Assembly: GCF_024502345.1 (NCBI RefSeq)
Contig: NZ_JALDNN010000001.1
Reading direction: 5' to 3' (one strand)
From: Escherichia coli
GTDB lineage: Bacteria > Pseudomonadota > Gammaproteobacteria > Enterobacterales > Enterobacteriaceae
Length of the DNA: 64,000 nt
The position numbers and the translations under genes are program-made. The first letter of the stretch is position 1; every line of letters begins with the position of its first letter. This document shows, in pieces, positions 11,388 through 56,452 of this stretch. The notes under the pieces are model-generated. The model had not been told where the DNA came from. It ran no database searches and worked only from the letters and a program-made list of their open reading frames with translations.

Positions 11388-11687
11388 ATGATGATGAACG
11401 CTTTCTTTCCGGCAATGGCGCTTATGGTGCTAGTGGGTTGTTCTACACCGTCACCCGTGCAGAAAGCACAACGGGTAAAGGTTGATCCTCTGCGTTCGTT
11501 GAATATGGAAGCGTTATGCAAGGATCAGGCGGCAAAACGTTATAACACCGGCGAGCAAAAAATCGACGTCACCGCCTTCGAACAGTTCCAGGGAAGCTAT
11601 GAAATGCGCGGTTATACCTTCCGTAAAGAGCAGTTTGTCTGTTCTTTTGACGCAGATGGCCATTTTTTGCATCTTTCCATGCGTTAA
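11388..11687 (+). CDS. ysaB: Putative lipoprotein YsaB, 99 aa
   Basis: 99-aa ORF with lipoprotein signal (LVGCS lipobox). Confidence 0.75.
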   Translation: MMMNAFFPAMALMVLVGCSTPSPVQKAQRVKVDPLRSLNMEALCKDQAAKRYNTGEQKIDVTAFEQFQGSYEMRGYTFRKEQFVCSFDADGHFLHLSMR

Positions 11688-54380: not shown

Positions 54381-55280
54381 TCAGTCCAGGTACTCTTTCA
54401 TTACGCCAGCCAGCCACTGCATAAACAGGTTTACACGCCGGGAAAGCTCCCGACGCTGCGGATAAACCAGCGAAAGGGAGAGCGGCTCGGCACGGTAGCC
54501 TGGCAACACTTCAATAAGCCGCCCGGCACGCAGGGCTTCGCGCACGGCAATGCGCGGGATCTGAATAATCCCCAGACCGGCAAGACCGGCAGCGAGATAG
54601 TTTTCGCTACTGTTTACCGTCAACATGCCGCCAGACTTAAACCACTGGACGCCATTAACGCTGGCAACCTCAAAACCTAACGGATGTACACCCAGGTGCG
54701 GTGTATAACGCACTATTGCGTGTGAAGTCAGATCATCGGGGCTTTGCGGATAACCAAAGCGCGTCAGATAGTGCGGACTGGCACAGTTGACCATGGTCAG
54801 TTTGCCGAGGGGACGGGCGATAACGCCATCTTCCGGTAACGCGCCAGTGCGTATCACGCAATCAAAACCATCATGAAGAATATCTACCGGACGGTCATGG
54901 CTACTCAGTTCCAGCTCAATTCCCGGATGCAGATAGAGAAATTCCGACAGGCGCGGCAGTAACAGGCTTTTCGCGATTCCTGGCGGGATGTCGATGCGTA
55001 ATTTACCGCTGATACTGGTGGCATCCTGTTGAAACAGACCGTCCAGTTCGTTGATATTACTCAACACATCTTTTGCCCGTTGATAATAGGTCATGCCTTC
55101 TGGCGTGAGTTTGACCCGTCGCGTGGTGCGCTGGAGAAGCTGGGTGCCAAGTTGATGTTCCAGTGCCTGTATCTGGCGCGAAACACTTCCCTTTGGCAAA
55201 GCAAAGAAATCCGCTGCGCGGGAAAAACTTTCCAGCTCCGCGACTTTGATGAACAACTGCATTGCGTGAATTTTATCCAT
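54381..55280 (-). CDS. yhjC: LysR-family transcriptional regulator YhjC
   Basis: Start placed at MDKIHAMQLFIKVAELESFSRAAD (LysR HTH); ORF track start 55352 gives 24 extra residues. Confidence 0.8.
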   Translation of the reverse strand: MDKIHAMQLFIKVAELESFSRAADFFALPKGSVSRQIQALEHQLGTQLLQRTTRRVKLTPEGMTYYQRAKDVLSNINELDGLFQQDATSISGKLRIDIPPGIAKSLLLPRLSEFLYLHPGIELELSSHDRPVDILHDGFDCVIRTGALPEDGVIARPLGKLTMVNCASPHYLTRFGYPQSPDDLTSHAIVRYTPHLGVHPLGFEVASVNGVQWFKSGGMLTVNSSENYLAAGLAGLGIIQIPRIAVREALRAGRLIEVLPGYRAEPLSLSLVYPQRRELSRRVNLFMQWLAGVMKEYLD

Positions 55281-55799
55281 TTCTTTGACCGATTGTTGTT
55301 CACAGCGAAACAGTAACGCACATATCGCATTGTTTATTGTTTTTTCTAACATCTAATGCCGGGTTTCACAATGTTGTCATGACGAATGTGGCGATTTCTC
55401 AGCAGGAAAAGGGCGGAATAGCTTTCTGAGAAAGGTGAATCCCCTTAAACAGAGCGTATTTTTCAGCGATTCCCTTTAAAGTGAATAGAGGACGTATTGG
55501 CTATTTGTGCTTATTTTTGTCTCATTGCCGTTTGTTATTTTGGCTTGTGGTCGCGGAATTTCATTTTTAATTGCATGCGTACTAACCATCAATATAAGGA
55601 AATCCTCAAAATTGTTTTAAATAGTGCCCTCGACATGTAATTTCAGGCGTTTAGCTGTAACTATTTATATCGGTAACTATTTTCTACGCGTCATCTCTGT
55701 AGAATGGCCACCGCCAAATGGCGAATTCTTATTTTTTTTCGCGGGTAATACCCTTCCACTACTTAAGTCTTTTTAACATATTCAGGTGGAGATTCAGTT

Positions 55800-56402
55800 A
55801 TGCAAATAGTCATGTTTGACAGGCAGTCAATATTTATTCATGGAATGAAAATCAGTTTACAGCAGCGTATTCCAGGAGTGAGTATTCAGGGGGCCAGTCA
55901 GGCAGACGAGTTATGGCAAAAGCTGGAAAGTTACCCTGAAGCTTTAGTTATGCTCGATGGCGATCAGGATGGTGAATTTTGCTACTGGCTGCTGCAAAAA
56001 ACCGTGGTGCAATTTCCTGAGGTTAAGGTGTTAATTACGGCGACGGATTGCAATAAACGGTGGTTACAGGAAGTTATCCATTTTAATGTGCTGGCCATTG
56101 TGCCTCGTGATTCAACCGTCGAGACATTTGCGTTGGCGGTAAATAGTGCGGCGATGGGGATGATGTTTCTGCCTGGAGACTGGCGGACGACGCCGGAAAA
56201 GGACATTAAAGATCTCAAATCGTTAAGCGCCCGCCAGCGGGAGATTTTAACCATGTTAGCGGCGGGCGAATCAAATAAGGAGATCGGCAGAGCGCTGAAT
56301 ATCAGTACTGGAACGGTAAAAGCGCATCTGGAATCCCTGTATCGCCGTCTGGAAGTGAAAAATCGCACCCAGGCGGCAATGATGTTAAATATCTCCTCCT
56401 GA
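55800..56402 (+). CDS. yhjB: LuxR/FixJ-type HTH regulator YhjB with atypical receiver-like N-domain, 200 aa
   Basis: C-terminal LuxR HTH (SARQREILTMLAAGESNKEIGRALNISTGTVKAHL). Confidence 0.85.
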   Translation: MQIVMFDRQSIFIHGMKISLQQRIPGVSIQGASQADELWQKLESYPEALVMLDGDQDGEFCYWLLQKTVVQFPEVKVLITATDCNKRWLQEVIHFNVLAIVPRDSTVETFALAVNSAAMGMMFLPGDWRTTPEKDIKDLKSLSARQREILTMLAAGESNKEIGRALNISTGTVKAHLESLYRRLEVKNRTQAAMMLNISS

Positions 56403-56452
56403 AGAGGATAATTTTACAGCCAGCAGGAAGTTAGCGGCTGGCTGTAAAAATA

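What the first reader, a model, noticed from the sequence alone, without database searches (positions are those of the whole stretch)
55800..56402. YhjB: orphan LuxR-type regulator with an atypical receiver-like domain next to LysR-type yhjC
YhjB has a clear C-terminal LuxR HTH, but its N-terminal domain has only a partial set of receiver signature residues (a candidate Asp in VMLDGD, no obvious conserved Lys-Pro motif), and no histidine kinase gene is adjacent. It may be a phosphorylation-independent regulator.
Basis: inference. Interest (0 to 1): 0.2.

Follow-up and report, generated by a model that had tools for sequence, protein, structure and literature searches.

The report
YhjB: regulator with a pseudo-receiver domain
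This is the known E. coli gene yhjB, a DNA-binding regulator whose sensor-like half keeps the shape of a phosphorylation switch but has lost three of its five catalytic residues; in related bacteria it sits next to a lysozyme-type gene rather than a kinase, and Escherichia has lost that neighbour.

Summary
Window 55800-56402 (+) is E. coli yhjB (200 aa), between the LysR-type gene yhjC/rcdB and treF, with no kinase gene within 9 kb.

- **DNA-binding half:** residues 140-195 are a clear LuxR/GerE helix-turn-helix (E 3e-22).
- **Receiver-like half:** residues 1-125 have the receiver fold. AlphaFold gives pLDDT 86, Foldseek finds LiaR, VraR and RcsB, and hhalign to NarL-type regulators gives 99.9% probability. 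Pfam's Response_reg model does not match.
- **Active site:** only two of the five catalytic residues remain, D7 and the acceptor D53. The metal-binding Asp is Arg8, the Thr/Ser is Ala81 and the Lys is Arg103.
- **Conservation:** this pattern is fixed in all 59 orthologous loci examined, under strong purifying selection (dN/dS 0.04-0.09 within Escherichia).

By the current definition YhjB is therefore a pseudo-receiver (atypical) response regulator. Canonical phosphotransfer control is unlikely but not excluded.

New here: the family is never kinase-linked. It is linked to a GH24 lysozyme gene in 72 of 85 related loci. In distant relatives this is a full DUF2589-lysozyme cassette. In closer relatives it is a catalytically dead lysozyme next to yhjB. 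In Escherichia it is absent.

This is an ordinary, known kind of protein with a modest new evolutionary angle.

The parts
55800..56402 (+). yhjB coding sequence (200 aa plus stop)
   Evidence: ORF list. Annotated yhjB in 5423 of 5426 E. coli genomes. Orthologue alignment.
55800..56174 (+). Pseudo-receiver domain, residues 1-125, (beta-alpha)5 fold
   Evidence: AlphaFold2 gives b1 2-6, a1 10-23, b2 28-32, a2 35-44, b3 49-53, a3 58-71, b4 76-81, a4 86-95, b5 97-102, a5 107-118, mean pLDDT 86. Foldseek top hits are LiaR, VraR and RcsB. hhalign to NarL-type regulators gives 99.9% probability. No PF00072 hit.
55818..55823 (+). Codons D7-R8, in place of the acidic pair DD1-DD2 (NarL D13-D14)
   Evidence: hhalign mapping. 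D7 is present in all intact family members. Position 8 is Arg in all 59 orthologous loci and is never Asp in 86 regulators.
55956..55958 (+). Codon D53, the position of the phospho-acceptor Asp (NarL D59)
   Evidence: It lies at the end of b3 in the model. It is conserved except in the Pectobacterium/Brenneria group, which has N or S.
56040..56042 (+). Codon A81 at the conserved Thr/Ser position (NarL S87)
   Evidence: hhalign. It lies at the end of b4. Across 86 regulators the position is A, V, L, M, I or F, never S or T. The flanking T80 and T82 are not conserved.
56106..56108 (+). Codon R103 at the conserved Lys position (NarL K109)
   Evidence: hhalign. It is Arg in all orthologues and Lys in most distant paralogues.
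56217..56384 (+). LuxR/GerE-type helix-turn-helix, residues 140-195
   Evidence: PF00196 E 3.2e-22. PDB matches to the NarL, VraR and DesR DNA-binding domains. It is nearly invariant across the family.
56412..56449 (.). 13-bp-stem hairpin shared by convergent yhjB and treF (bidirectional terminator-like). It occupies almost all of the 50-bp gap where other genera carry lysozyme and HEPN genes.
   Evidence: Folding gives -23.3 kcal/mol on + and -20.8 on -, with z -6.1 and -7.5. Synteny comparison.
55594..55609 (.). Inverted repeat ATAAGGA-AA-TCCTCAA about 200 bp upstream of yhjB; candidate operator for a GerE-type dimer
   Evidence: Conserved across genera. It is a perfect TTAAGGAttTCCTTAA in K. 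oxytoca and TTCAGGAttTCCTGAA, a change on both arms, in Pseudocitrobacter. It matches the RcsAB-box consensus at 9 of 14 positions (PMC4325325). In the window alone it is not above chance.
55698..55757 (+). Conserved promoter-proximal/leader block: -10-like TAGAAT (55700-55705), AATGGC repeats, palindrome GGGTAATACCC (55743-55753)
   Evidence: Cross-genus alignment of yhjB upstream regions. No consensus sigma-70 promoter was called on the + strand, so this is inferred from conservation only.

Best explanation
YhjB is a NarL/FixJ-architecture transcription factor. Its N-terminal domain is a pseudo-receiver: it keeps the (beta-alpha)5 receiver fold, DD1 (D7) and the acceptor-position Asp (D53). 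It has replaced the directly metal-binding Asp with Arg8, the Thr/Ser with Ala81 and the Lys with Arg103. It also lacks the usual D+4 Pro, D+8 Gly and K-3 aromatic residue.

Inferred mechanism: with no Mg2+ site and no Thr/Lys to hold a phosphoryl group, the domain no longer works as a kinase-driven switch. It more likely serves as a fixed dimerisation or regulatory module. The remodelled, Arg-lined pocket is conserved because it stabilises one conformation. Activity would then be set mainly by how much protein is made, and possibly by a partner or ligand.

Evolution: the family is ancestrally tied to a lysozyme-type cassette rather than a kinase, and Escherichia kept the regulator after losing that neighbour.

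Shown here: identity, fold, residue mapping, conservation, selection and gene linkage. Inferred: absence of physiological phosphorylation, control by abundance, and regulation of the cassette.
For: Domains and fold:
- GerE HTH E 3e-22 and no PF00072 hit. SUPERFAMILY likewise assigns only residues 134-196 (supplement of PMC8464067).
- The AlphaFold model has a receiver topology at pLDDT 86.
- Foldseek top hits are full-length LiaR, VraR, RcsB, DesR, EvgA, FixJ, NarL and VpsT.

Residue mapping:
- hhalign to canonical NarL-type regulators gives 99.9% probability and maps D13/D14/D59/S87/K109 to D7/R8/D53/A81/R103.
- This meets the definition of a pseudo-receiver, which is the lack of at least one of the five active-site residues. 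DD2 is the residue that binds the metal directly and is non-acidic in about 80% of pseudo-receivers (PMC12632262).
- CheY with Lys at DD2 (D13K) is poorly phosphorylated yet constitutively active (PMC4671073).

Divergence and conservation:
- The N-domain alone finds only 46 of 1.84 billion representative proteins at E<=1e-3.
- The F-D-R...D...A/V/L...R pattern is fixed in 59 orthologous loci spanning 47-96% identity.
- dN/dS within Escherichia is 0.04-0.09 for the gene and 0.06-0.16 for the N-domain.
- A frameshift allele occurs in only 2 of 5409 complete genomes.

Linkage:
- No kinase-like gene lies within 10 kb in 85 related loci, apart from a weak RcsC-like hit about 9 kb away in three Klebsiella loci.
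- A GH24 lysozyme gene adjoins the regulator in 72 of the 85 loci.

Experimental reports:
- QseC does not phosphorylate YhjB (PMC2726761).
- Epitope-tagged YhjB gave a ChIP-exo peak in plain glucose medium (PMC8464067).
- Salmonella yhjB is induced 7-20 fold by indole and has a SoxS site upstream, which fits control at the level of expression (PMC3405474, PMC10268841).
Against: - D53 and D7 are retained and strongly conserved. The review notes that substitutions at DD, T or K do not always abolish phosphotransfer (PMC12632262).
- A paper cites Yamamoto et al. 2005 as finding that YhjB stimulates dephosphorylation of EnvZ and NtrB in vitro. This could mean inefficient phosphotransfer. I could not read the primary paper.
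- The ChIP-exo evidence is one weak site inside dhaK, with signal/noise 3.75.
- I could not inspect side-chain geometry in the model.
- Regulation of the lysozyme cassette by these regulators rests on gene linkage only. No shared operator was found between the cassette promoters and the yhjB loci.
Confidence: 0.62

Rival explanations
1. YhjB is a weak but genuine response regulator. D53 is phosphorylated inefficiently by a kinase encoded elsewhere or by acetyl phosphate, and the unusual Arg8/Arg103 site only tunes the kinetics.
For: - D53 and D7 are conserved in nearly all family members.
- YhjB is reported to accelerate dephosphorylation of EnvZ and NtrB in vitro (PMC3405474 citing Yamamoto 2005).
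- Substitutions at DD, T or K do not always abolish the chemistry (PMC12632262).
- YhjB is included in E. coli response-regulator panels (PMC2726761).
Against: - Three catalytic positions are changed at once, including the directly metal-binding DD2, which is now a cation.
- The D+4 Pro, D+8 Gly and K-3 aromatic residue are also absent (sequence).
- No kinase is linked in 85 loci.
- QseC does not phosphorylate it.
- In the Pectobacterium/Brenneria and Burkholderia relatives the D position itself is N, S or E. The family's function therefore does not depend on an Asp there.
Confidence: 0.22
2. YhjB is a pseudo-receiver regulator switched by a ligand or partner protein rather than by abundance. 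Candidates are an anion or metabolite bound in the Arg-lined pocket, redox at Cys61 or Cys84, or heteromer formation with another FixJ/NarL-type protein such as RcsB.
For: - Strict conservation of R8, R103 and the first 26 residues (b1-a1) in orthologues suggests a selected interaction surface.
- Ligand-, redox- and partner-controlled pseudo-receivers are documented (PMC12632262).
- An RcsAB-box-like inverted repeat lies upstream of yhjB.
Against: - No ligand or partner is indicated by gene context.
- The c-di-GMP motif W[F/L/M][T/S]R of VpsT is absent. 'WRTT' at 128-131 is not conserved in orthologues.
- Cys84 is not conserved in Salmonella.
- Nothing was tested directly.
Confidence: 0.13
3. 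E. coli yhjB is a functionless relic that is decaying after loss of its neighbouring lysozyme and HEPN genes.
For: - Escherichia lacks the neighbour genes present in other genera.
- E. coli genomes lack the DUF2589 cassette altogether.
- Only one weak ChIP-exo site was found.
- Frameshifted alleles exist.
Against: - dN/dS is 0.04-0.09 within Escherichia, including the N-domain.
- The gene is present at at least 80% coverage in 5402 of 5426 complete genomes.
- The frameshift allele is in 2 of 5409 genomes.
- The upstream region is strongly conserved.
Confidence: 0.03

Closest known systems
Canonical NarL/FixJ-family response regulators (NarL, NarP, RcsB, UhpA, UvrY, EvgA; VraR, LiaR, DesR)
   Same: The two-domain architecture and fold are the same: an N-terminal (beta-alpha)5 domain, a linker and a four-helix GerE HTH. 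These are the best sequence and structure matches. DD1 and the acceptor-position Asp are kept.
   Different: DD2 is Arg, T/S is Ala, K is Arg, and there is no D+4 Pro, D+8 Gly or K-3 aromatic residue. It falls below the Pfam Response_reg threshold. It has no partner kinase gene.
Pseudo-receiver / atypical response regulators as defined by Bourret et al. 2025 (e.g. ChxR, HP1043, GlnR, RamR, BldM/WhiI, JadR1, SecR)
   Same: It has the receiver fold but lacks catalytic residues, it is an orphan, and it has a DNA-binding output. Loss of DD2 is the commonest change in this class (PMC12632262).
   Different: It keeps the Asp at the acceptor position, so it is not an aspartate-less receiver. It has paired Arg substitutions at DD2 and K. 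Its mechanism of control is unknown. The linkage to a lysozyme-type gene does not appear in the parts of that review I read.
VpsT / CsgD (LuxR-type regulators with atypical receivers)
   Same: The architecture is the same. VpsT is among the structural matches and CsgD among the HTH matches.
   Different: It has no W[F/L/M][T/S]R c-di-GMP motif (sequence), and the N-domain is not detectably closer to these proteins than to canonical receivers.
FimZ (E. coli orphan NarL-type regulator)
   Same: It is an orphan, it is LuxR-type, and DD2 is not acidic: FimZ has D-T where canonical proteins have D-D.
   Different: FimZ keeps the T/S and K positions and aligns as a normal receiver in the canonical set. 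YhjB has lost three positions.
CheY D13K/D13R mutants
   Same: There is a basic residue at DD2. In CheY this gives poor phosphorylation but constitutive activity (PMC4671073; 10.1101/781468 abstract). This is a precedent for how the YhjB pocket might work.
   Different: Those are engineered single substitutions in a single-domain protein. YhjB also changes T and K, and its activity state has not been measured.

Membership tests
NarL/FixJ (LuxR C-terminal) two-domain regulator architecture | C-terminal GerE/LuxR-type helix-turn-helix | tested here: met
   PF00196 at residues 140-195, E 3.2e-22, 78 bits against a 23.5 cut-off.
NarL/FixJ (LuxR C-terminal) two-domain regulator architecture | N-terminal (beta-alpha)5 receiver-fold domain | tested here: met
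   AlphaFold topology at pLDDT 86. Foldseek hits to LiaR, VraR and RcsB at E 1e-12 to 1e-10. hhalign 99.9% over residues 1-199.
True (phosphorylatable) receiver domain | DD1 acidic (NarL D13) | tested here: met
   D7. It is present in all intact family members.
True (phosphorylatable) receiver domain | DD2 acidic, the direct Mg2+ ligand (NarL D14) | tested here: not met
   R8. It is Arg in all 59 orthologous loci and is never Asp in 86 regulators.
True (phosphorylatable) receiver domain | Phospho-acceptor Asp at the end of b3 (NarL D59) | tested here: met
   D53.
True (phosphorylatable) receiver domain | Thr/Ser at the end of b4 (NarL S87) | tested here: not met
   A81; b4 spans 76-81. The position is never S or T in 86 regulators, and the neighbours T80 and T82 are not conserved.
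True (phosphorylatable) receiver domain | Lys at the end of b5 (NarL K109) | tested here: not met
   R103. It is Arg in all orthologues and Lys only in distant paralogues.
True (phosphorylatable) receiver domain | Recognised by Pfam PF00072 above its gathering score | tested here: not met
   No PF00072 match was listed at E<=1. Some distant family members carry weak precomputed PF00072 hits.
True (phosphorylatable) receiver domain | Partner histidine kinase | tested here: inconclusive
   None lies within 9 kb in E. coli or within 10 kb in 85 related loci by tblastn with NarX, UhpB and RcsC plus precomputed Pfam. A kinase encoded elsewhere cannot be excluded.
True (phosphorylatable) receiver domain | Demonstrated Asp phosphorylation | not testable with these tools
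   Only second-hand literature is available. QseC does not phosphorylate YhjB (PMC2726761). YhjB is said to speed dephosphorylation of EnvZ and NtrB (PMC3405474 citing Yamamoto 2005).
Pseudo-receiver / atypical response regulator (Bourret et al. 2025) | [quoted passage not shown] | tested here: met
   Three of five are lacking: DD2, T and K. The definition is in PMC12632262.
Pseudo-receiver / atypical response regulator (Bourret et al. 2025) | Activity independent of Asp phosphorylation | not testable with these tools
   Inferred from residues and gene context only.
Aspartate-less receiver (ALR) subset | Acceptor Asp replaced | tested here: not met
   D53 is present. The Pectobacterium/Brenneria (N/S) and Burkholderia (E) relatives would qualify.
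VpsT-type c-di-GMP-binding LuxR regulators | W[F/L/M][T/S]R motif (recalled from the VpsT literature) | tested here: not met
   The 200-aa sequence has no such motif. 'WRTT' at 128-131 does not fit and is not conserved.
RcsB auxiliary partners (RcsA, BglJ, GadE, MatA, DctR) | Heteromer formation with RcsB | not testable with these tools
   The only lead is an RcsAB-box-like repeat upstream of yhjB.

The most novel reading that the evidence does not exclude
YhjB-type regulators (LuxR HTH plus pseudo-receiver) and a lysozyme-centred cassette may form an undescribed, ancient regulatory module. The cassette holds two DUF2589 proteins, a GH24 lysozyme, two small membrane proteins and a secreted barnase-fold protein. 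It is found across Enterobacterales and in Burkholderia. The regulator would switch on a holin/endolysin-like release or lysis device. In the Escherichia-Salmonella-Enterobacter lineage the cassette shrank to a catalytically dead lysozyme (Q-D-V in place of E-D-T) plus a membrane HEPN protein, and it vanished in Escherichia. That would leave a regulator that selection has kept for a new, unknown job.
Probability: 0.3. Interest if true: 0.5.

Novelty: new member of a known kind. Interest (0 to 1): 0.3.

Why it matters
YhjB is one of the few E. coli K-12 transcription factors still without a function, and it is routinely listed as an orphan response regulator. If it is a pseudo-receiver protein, kinase-hunting is probably the wrong strategy. 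More useful experiments would be D53, R8 and R103 mutants, overexpression regulons, and tests in species that still carry the neighbouring genes.

The consistent linkage of this regulator family to a lysozyme-type cassette gives a concrete, testable lead to an ancestral function. It also flags an uncharacterised, very highly conserved DUF2589 cassette.

None of this overturns current understanding. Pseudo-receivers make up several percent of receiver domains, and loss of DD2 is their commonest feature.

Tried and rejected
- **Primary paper:** I could not read Yamamoto et al. 2005, so the in-vitro phosphotransfer statement is second-hand.
- **c-di-GMP (VpsT-like) control:** rejected, because YhjB and its orthologues have no W[FLM][TS]R motif.
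- **Decay or pseudogene:** rejected by dN/dS and by the frameshift allele being in only 2 of 5409 genomes.
- **Shared operator:** a palindrome TGCGAATTCGCA (variants TGCGAGCTCGCA, TGCAAATTTGCA) lies about 40 nt upstream of DUF2589A in the cassette loci. It is absent from the yhjB-orthologue loci and from the window and from the Burkholderia and Pectobacterium promoters.
- **Candidate operator at the ChIP-exo site:** the repeat at 55594-55609 is not present at the single published YhjB site in dhaK. In the window alone it is not above chance.
- **SoxS box:** the Salmonella SoxS box GCACATTTTGTTAAA is not recognisable in the E. coli intergenic region.
- **Cassette function:** PADLOC and PHROGs gave nothing for the cassette proteins except 'endolysin'. 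The only paper mentioning DUF2589 is unrelated. No paper was found for the Pectobacterium 'virulence regulator' Q8GCQ8.
- **DUF2589A structure:** the AlphaFold model failed (pLDDT 49), so no fold search was run.
- **Kinase detection:** in related loci this relied on tblastn with three E. coli kinase sequences that include the kinase domain (NarX, UhpB, RcsC; the EvgS query was N-terminal only) plus precomputed Pfam for five loci. It is adequate for adjacent HisKA_3-type kinases but not exhaustive.
Full report
**1. What is there**

Window 55800-56402 (+) is a 200-codon ORF with a Shine-Dalgarno-like GGTGGAG upstream. It matches annotated yhjB in 5423 of 5426 complete E. coli genomes. Most matches are 95-99% identical and 96 are at least 99% identical.

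The annotated gene order in a near-identical strain is yhjE, yhjD, rcdB (yhjC, LysR-type, divergent), yhjB, treF (convergent), ccp, gadA, gadX, gadW. No histidine kinase lies within 9 kb. A strong hairpin at 56412-56449 folds at -23.3 kcal/mol with z -6.1. It fills most of the 50-bp gap between the yhjB and treF stop codons.

**2. Domains**

The C-terminal 56 residues are an unambiguous LuxR/GerE helix-turn-helix (PF00196, E 3.2e-22). Pfam's Response_reg model gives no match at E<=1. SUPERFAMILY, as tabulated in the supplement of PMC8464067, also assigns only residues 134-196.

Several results show that the N-terminal half is nevertheless homologous to receivers along its whole length.
- NCBIfam response-regulator models (ErdR, MadR, RcsB) align over residues 1-197, far below their cut-offs.
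- phmmer against the PDB finds VraR, NarL and DesR.
- An AlphaFold2 model (mean pLDDT 86) has the classical order b1 2-6, a1 10-23, b2 28-32, a2 35-44, b3 49-53, a3 58-71, b4 76-81, a4 86-95, b5 97-102, a5 107-118. A low-confidence linker (129-137) and four HTH helices follow.
- Foldseek against the PDB returns full-length LiaR, VraR, RcsB, spr1814, ChrA, DesR, EvgA, FixJ, NarL and VpsT.

**3. Scoring the active site**

I aligned 35 family members (A4). Separately I aligned seven canonical E. coli NarL-type regulators taken from MG1655 together with two canonical hits (A3). I then compared the two profiles. hhalign gave 99.9% probability and E 2e-35 over residues 1-199. The mapping, in true NarL numbering, is:

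| NarL residue | Role | YhjB residue |
|---|---|---|
| D13 | DD1 | D7 |
| D14 | DD2 | R8 |
| D59 | acceptor Asp | D53 |
| S87 | Thr/Ser | A81 |
| K109 | Lys | R103 |

The predicted strand ends agree: b3 ends at 53, b4 at 81 and b5 at 102. Secondary signatures are also missing. Position D+4 is Asp57 rather than Pro. Position D+8 is Cys61 rather than Gly. Position K-3 is Ile100 rather than Tyr or Phe.

[quoted passage not shown] By that definition YhjB has a pseudo-receiver domain and is an atypical, orphan response regulator. The same review says that DD2 binds the metal directly and is non-acidic in about 80% of pseudo-receivers (PMC12632262). YhjB is not an aspartate-less receiver, because D53 is kept.

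**4. Decay or design?**

The N-domain alone, searched against 1.84 billion representative proteins, finds only 46 at E<=1e-3. Canonical receivers appear only at the very bottom of that list. The domain is therefore far from the mainstream.

It is not drifting, however. I examined 86 regulators: the window copy plus 85 related loci from a genome-wide scan and contig look-ups.

| Position | Residues observed across the family |
|---|---|
| 7 (DD1) | Asp in every intact copy |
| 8 (DD2) | Arg in all 59 orthologous loci (47-96% identity, Escherichia to Enterobacter); K, Q, P, T or E in distant paralogues; never Asp |
| 53 (acceptor) | Asp except in Pectobacterium/Brenneria (N or S) |
| 81 (Thr/Ser) | Always hydrophobic, never Ser or Thr |
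| 103 (Lys) | Arg in orthologues; Lys in most paralogues |

Selection data point the same way.
- Pairwise dN/dS against other Escherichia lineages is 0.04-0.09 for the gene and 0.06-0.16 for the N-domain.
- Frameshifted 211-aa products appear in databases. The +G allege behind them is present in only 2 of 5409 complete genomes.

The remodelled pocket is a selected state.

**5. Phosphorylation**

A cationic residue at DD2 removes the Mg2+ ligand that phosphotransfer needs. The T and K residues that hold the phosphoryl group are also changed. In CheY, the D13K substitution at DD2 gives a poorly phosphorylated yet constitutively active protein (PMC4671073). This is a precedent for a fixed 'on-like' conformation.

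Two points argue the other way. D53 is retained. One paper, citing Yamamoto et al. 2005, states that YhjB stimulates dephosphorylation of EnvZ and NtrB in vitro (PMC3405474), and I could not read the primary source.

Other reports are compatible with kinase independence.
- QseC does not phosphorylate YhjB (PMC2726761).
- The review notes that DD, T or K substitutions need not abolish the chemistry entirely.
- In ChIP-exo of 40 candidate factors, YhjB was among the 34 that gave a signal. It gave a single weak site inside dhaK, with signal/noise 3.75, in glucose minimal medium (PMC8464067).
- Salmonella yhjB is induced 7-20 fold by indole. A SoxS site was mapped in the Salmonella yhjB-yhjC intergenic region (PMC10268841).

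I put about 0.6 on kinase-independent function and about 0.2 on weak genuine phosphorylation.

**6. What the family is linked to**

No kinase-like sequence lies within 10 kb of any of the 85 related loci, except a weak RcsC-like hit about 9 kb away in three Klebsiella loci. The precomputed Pfam tables for five loci agree. The recurrent neighbour is instead a GH24 'phage lysozyme' gene.

*Orthologous locus (yhjD-yhjC-yhjB...treF).*
- 49 of 59 loci carry a lysozyme homologue convergent with yhjB, starting between -48 and +151 bp from its stop.
- 47 of 59 also carry a membrane-anchored HEPN_STY4199 gene.
- The ten loci without the lysozyme are six Escherichia, three Citrobacter amalonaticus and Intestinirhabdus.

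*Paralogous group (32-45% identity).* This group covers Kosakonia, Cronobacter, Ewingella, Rahnella, Pectobacterium, Brenneria, Leminorella, Pseudescherichia and a second Enterobacter copy.
- 23 of 26 loci carry a cassette: DUF2589-A, DUF2589-B, lysozyme, a secreted barnase-fold protein, and two small membrane proteins.
- The barnase-fold protein matches a PDB binase at E 7e-5, and the barnase catalytic Glu and His are not kept.
- Two of the three exceptions are truncated contigs.

*Catalytic state of the lysozymes.* The cassette lysozymes keep the E-D-T catalytic triad in 23 of 23 cases. The yhjB-adjacent ones have Q-D-(V/I/L) in 47 of 48 cases. These are conserved pseudo-lysozymes, and they are truncated in Salmonella and Citrobacter.

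*Wider distribution.*
- A Burkholderia ubonensis regulator is 26% identical to YhjB over its full length. It has Ser at DD2, Glu at the D position and Arg at K. It sits divergently next to DUF2589-A, DUF2589-B, a lysozyme and five unknown genes.
- E. coli genomes have no DUF2589 cassette anywhere.

The simplest reading is this. The regulator family is ancestrally coupled to this cassette. The cassette was reduced to a dead lysozyme plus HEPN in the Salmonella-Enterobacter lineage and was deleted in Escherichia. yhjB has stayed under selection, presumably with other targets. Direct regulation of the cassette by these proteins is inferred from linkage only.

**7. Upstream region**

Aligning 260 bp upstream of yhjB from 13 taxa shows blocks conserved from Escherichia to Klebsiella and Kluyvera.
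- An inverted repeat lies at 55594-55609 (ATAAGGA-AA-TCCTCAA). It is perfect in K. oxytoca (TTAAGGAttTCCTTAA). In Pseudocitrobacter it carries a change on both arms (TTCAGGAttTCCTGAA).
- A -10-like TAGAAT lies at 55700-55705.
- A block extends to 55757 and includes the palindrome GGGTAATACCC.

The repeat matches the RcsAB-box consensus TaAGaatatTCcta at 9 of 14 positions (PMC4325325). It is the kind of site a GerE-type dimer binds. It could be an autoregulatory or Rcs-dependent operator. It is not found at the dhaK ChIP site, and in the window alone it is not above chance. It remains a lead.

**8. Comparison and verdict**

YhjB works like, and is built like, a NarL/FixJ regulator. It fails three of the five defining active-site tests for a true receiver and meets the definition of a pseudo-receiver. 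The closest functional analogies are orphan atypical regulators such as ChxR, HP1043, GlnR, RamR and BldM, and the CheY D13K mutant. VpsT-type c-di-GMP control is excluded by the absence of the motif.

The gene and its orphan status are already known. The explicit residue analysis, its conservation, and the lysozyme linkage are modest additions. The finding is correct and largely ordinary, so I score interest at 0.3. The most novel reading not excluded is an undescribed regulator-plus-lysis/secretion cassette module. I give it a probability of about 0.3.

Noticed in passing
window 55594-55609: The inverted repeat ATAAGGA-AA-TCCTCAA about 200 bp upstream of yhjB is conserved across genera. It is perfect in K. 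oxytoca and changed on both arms in Pseudocitrobacter. It matches the RcsAB-box consensus at 9 of 14 positions. It may be an operator for RcsB or for YhjB itself.
   Followed up: partly
window 55652-55682 and 55698-55757: A tandem direct repeat TAGCTGTAACTATTT / TATCGGTAACTATTT was found; its first copy is conserved as cTGTAAcTATTcATA. A -10-like TAGAAT and a conserved leader block with the palindrome GGGTAATACCC (55743-55753) follow. No consensus sigma-70 promoter was called on the + strand.
   Followed up: partly
window 56403-56452 versus L013:7604-9847 and L016:7583-10375: Between yhjB and treF, Escherichia has only a 50-bp hairpin. Salmonella, Citrobacter, Kluyvera, Klebsiella and Enterobacter carry a lysozyme homologue there, and most also carry a membrane HEPN_STY4199 gene.
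   Followed up: yes
L013:7609-7965, L016:7583-8047 and 46 other loci: The yhjB-adjacent lysozyme homologues have Q-D-(V/I/L) in place of the GH24 catalytic E-D-T in 47 of 48 loci. In Salmonella and Citrobacter they are also truncated to about 116 aa. This is a conserved pseudo-lysozyme, STM3605 in Salmonella LT2.
   Followed up: yes
L015:8365-11604; also L009, L011, L073-L096, L098: There is an uncharacterised cassette: DUF2589-A, DUF2589-B, an active-type GH24 lysozyme, a secreted barnase-fold protein lacking the barnase catalytic Glu and His, and two small membrane proteins. The Cronobacter copy adds an RNase-A-like (CdiA-CT) protein. PADLOC has no match, and the only PHROGs match is endolysin for the lysozyme.
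   Followed up: partly
L015, about 35-50 nt upstream of the DUF2589-A start (near 11640-11655); same position in L073-L096: The palindrome TGCGAATTCGCA keeps its symmetry in its variants (TGCGAGCTCGCA, TGCAAATTTGCA, TGCGCAACCGCGCA). A conserved CCAATATTTTC lies about 45 nt further upstream. It is absent from the yhjB-orthologue loci.
   Followed up: partly
proteins P0305-P0424; alignment A6: DUF2589-A is unusually conserved. It is 63-84% identical between Enterobacterales, Burkholderia, Pseudoalteromonas, Paludibacterium and Desulfurivibrio. AlphaFold nevertheless gave a poor model, pLDDT 49. Pseudoalteromonas has the DUF2589 pair without a lysozyme or regulator.
   Followed up: partly
window about 56286 (L097:987): A +1 G insertion (GG to GGG) in the HTH region gives the 211-aa frameshifted YhjB seen in many draft and metagenome assemblies. 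It is in only 2 of 5409 complete E. coli genomes, so much of its apparent abundance may be homopolymer sequencing error.
   Followed up: yes
window 54381-55352 (-): The longest yhjC/rcdB ORF is 323 aa from an upstream ATG. RefSeq annotates 299 aa (900 nt) in a near-identical strain, so the mechanical ORF start probably overshoots.
   Followed up: no
L006:2849-3481 (E. coli K-12 fimZ): FimZ, another orphan NarL-type regulator, also lacks an acidic DD2. It has D-T where the other six canonical E. coli regulators have D-D.
   Followed up: no
L011:6001-6615 (protein P0169): The Pectobacterium family member, which has Asn at the acceptor position, is named 'Virulence regulator' in UniProt entry Q8GCQ8. 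No paper in the library explains the name.
   Followed up: partly
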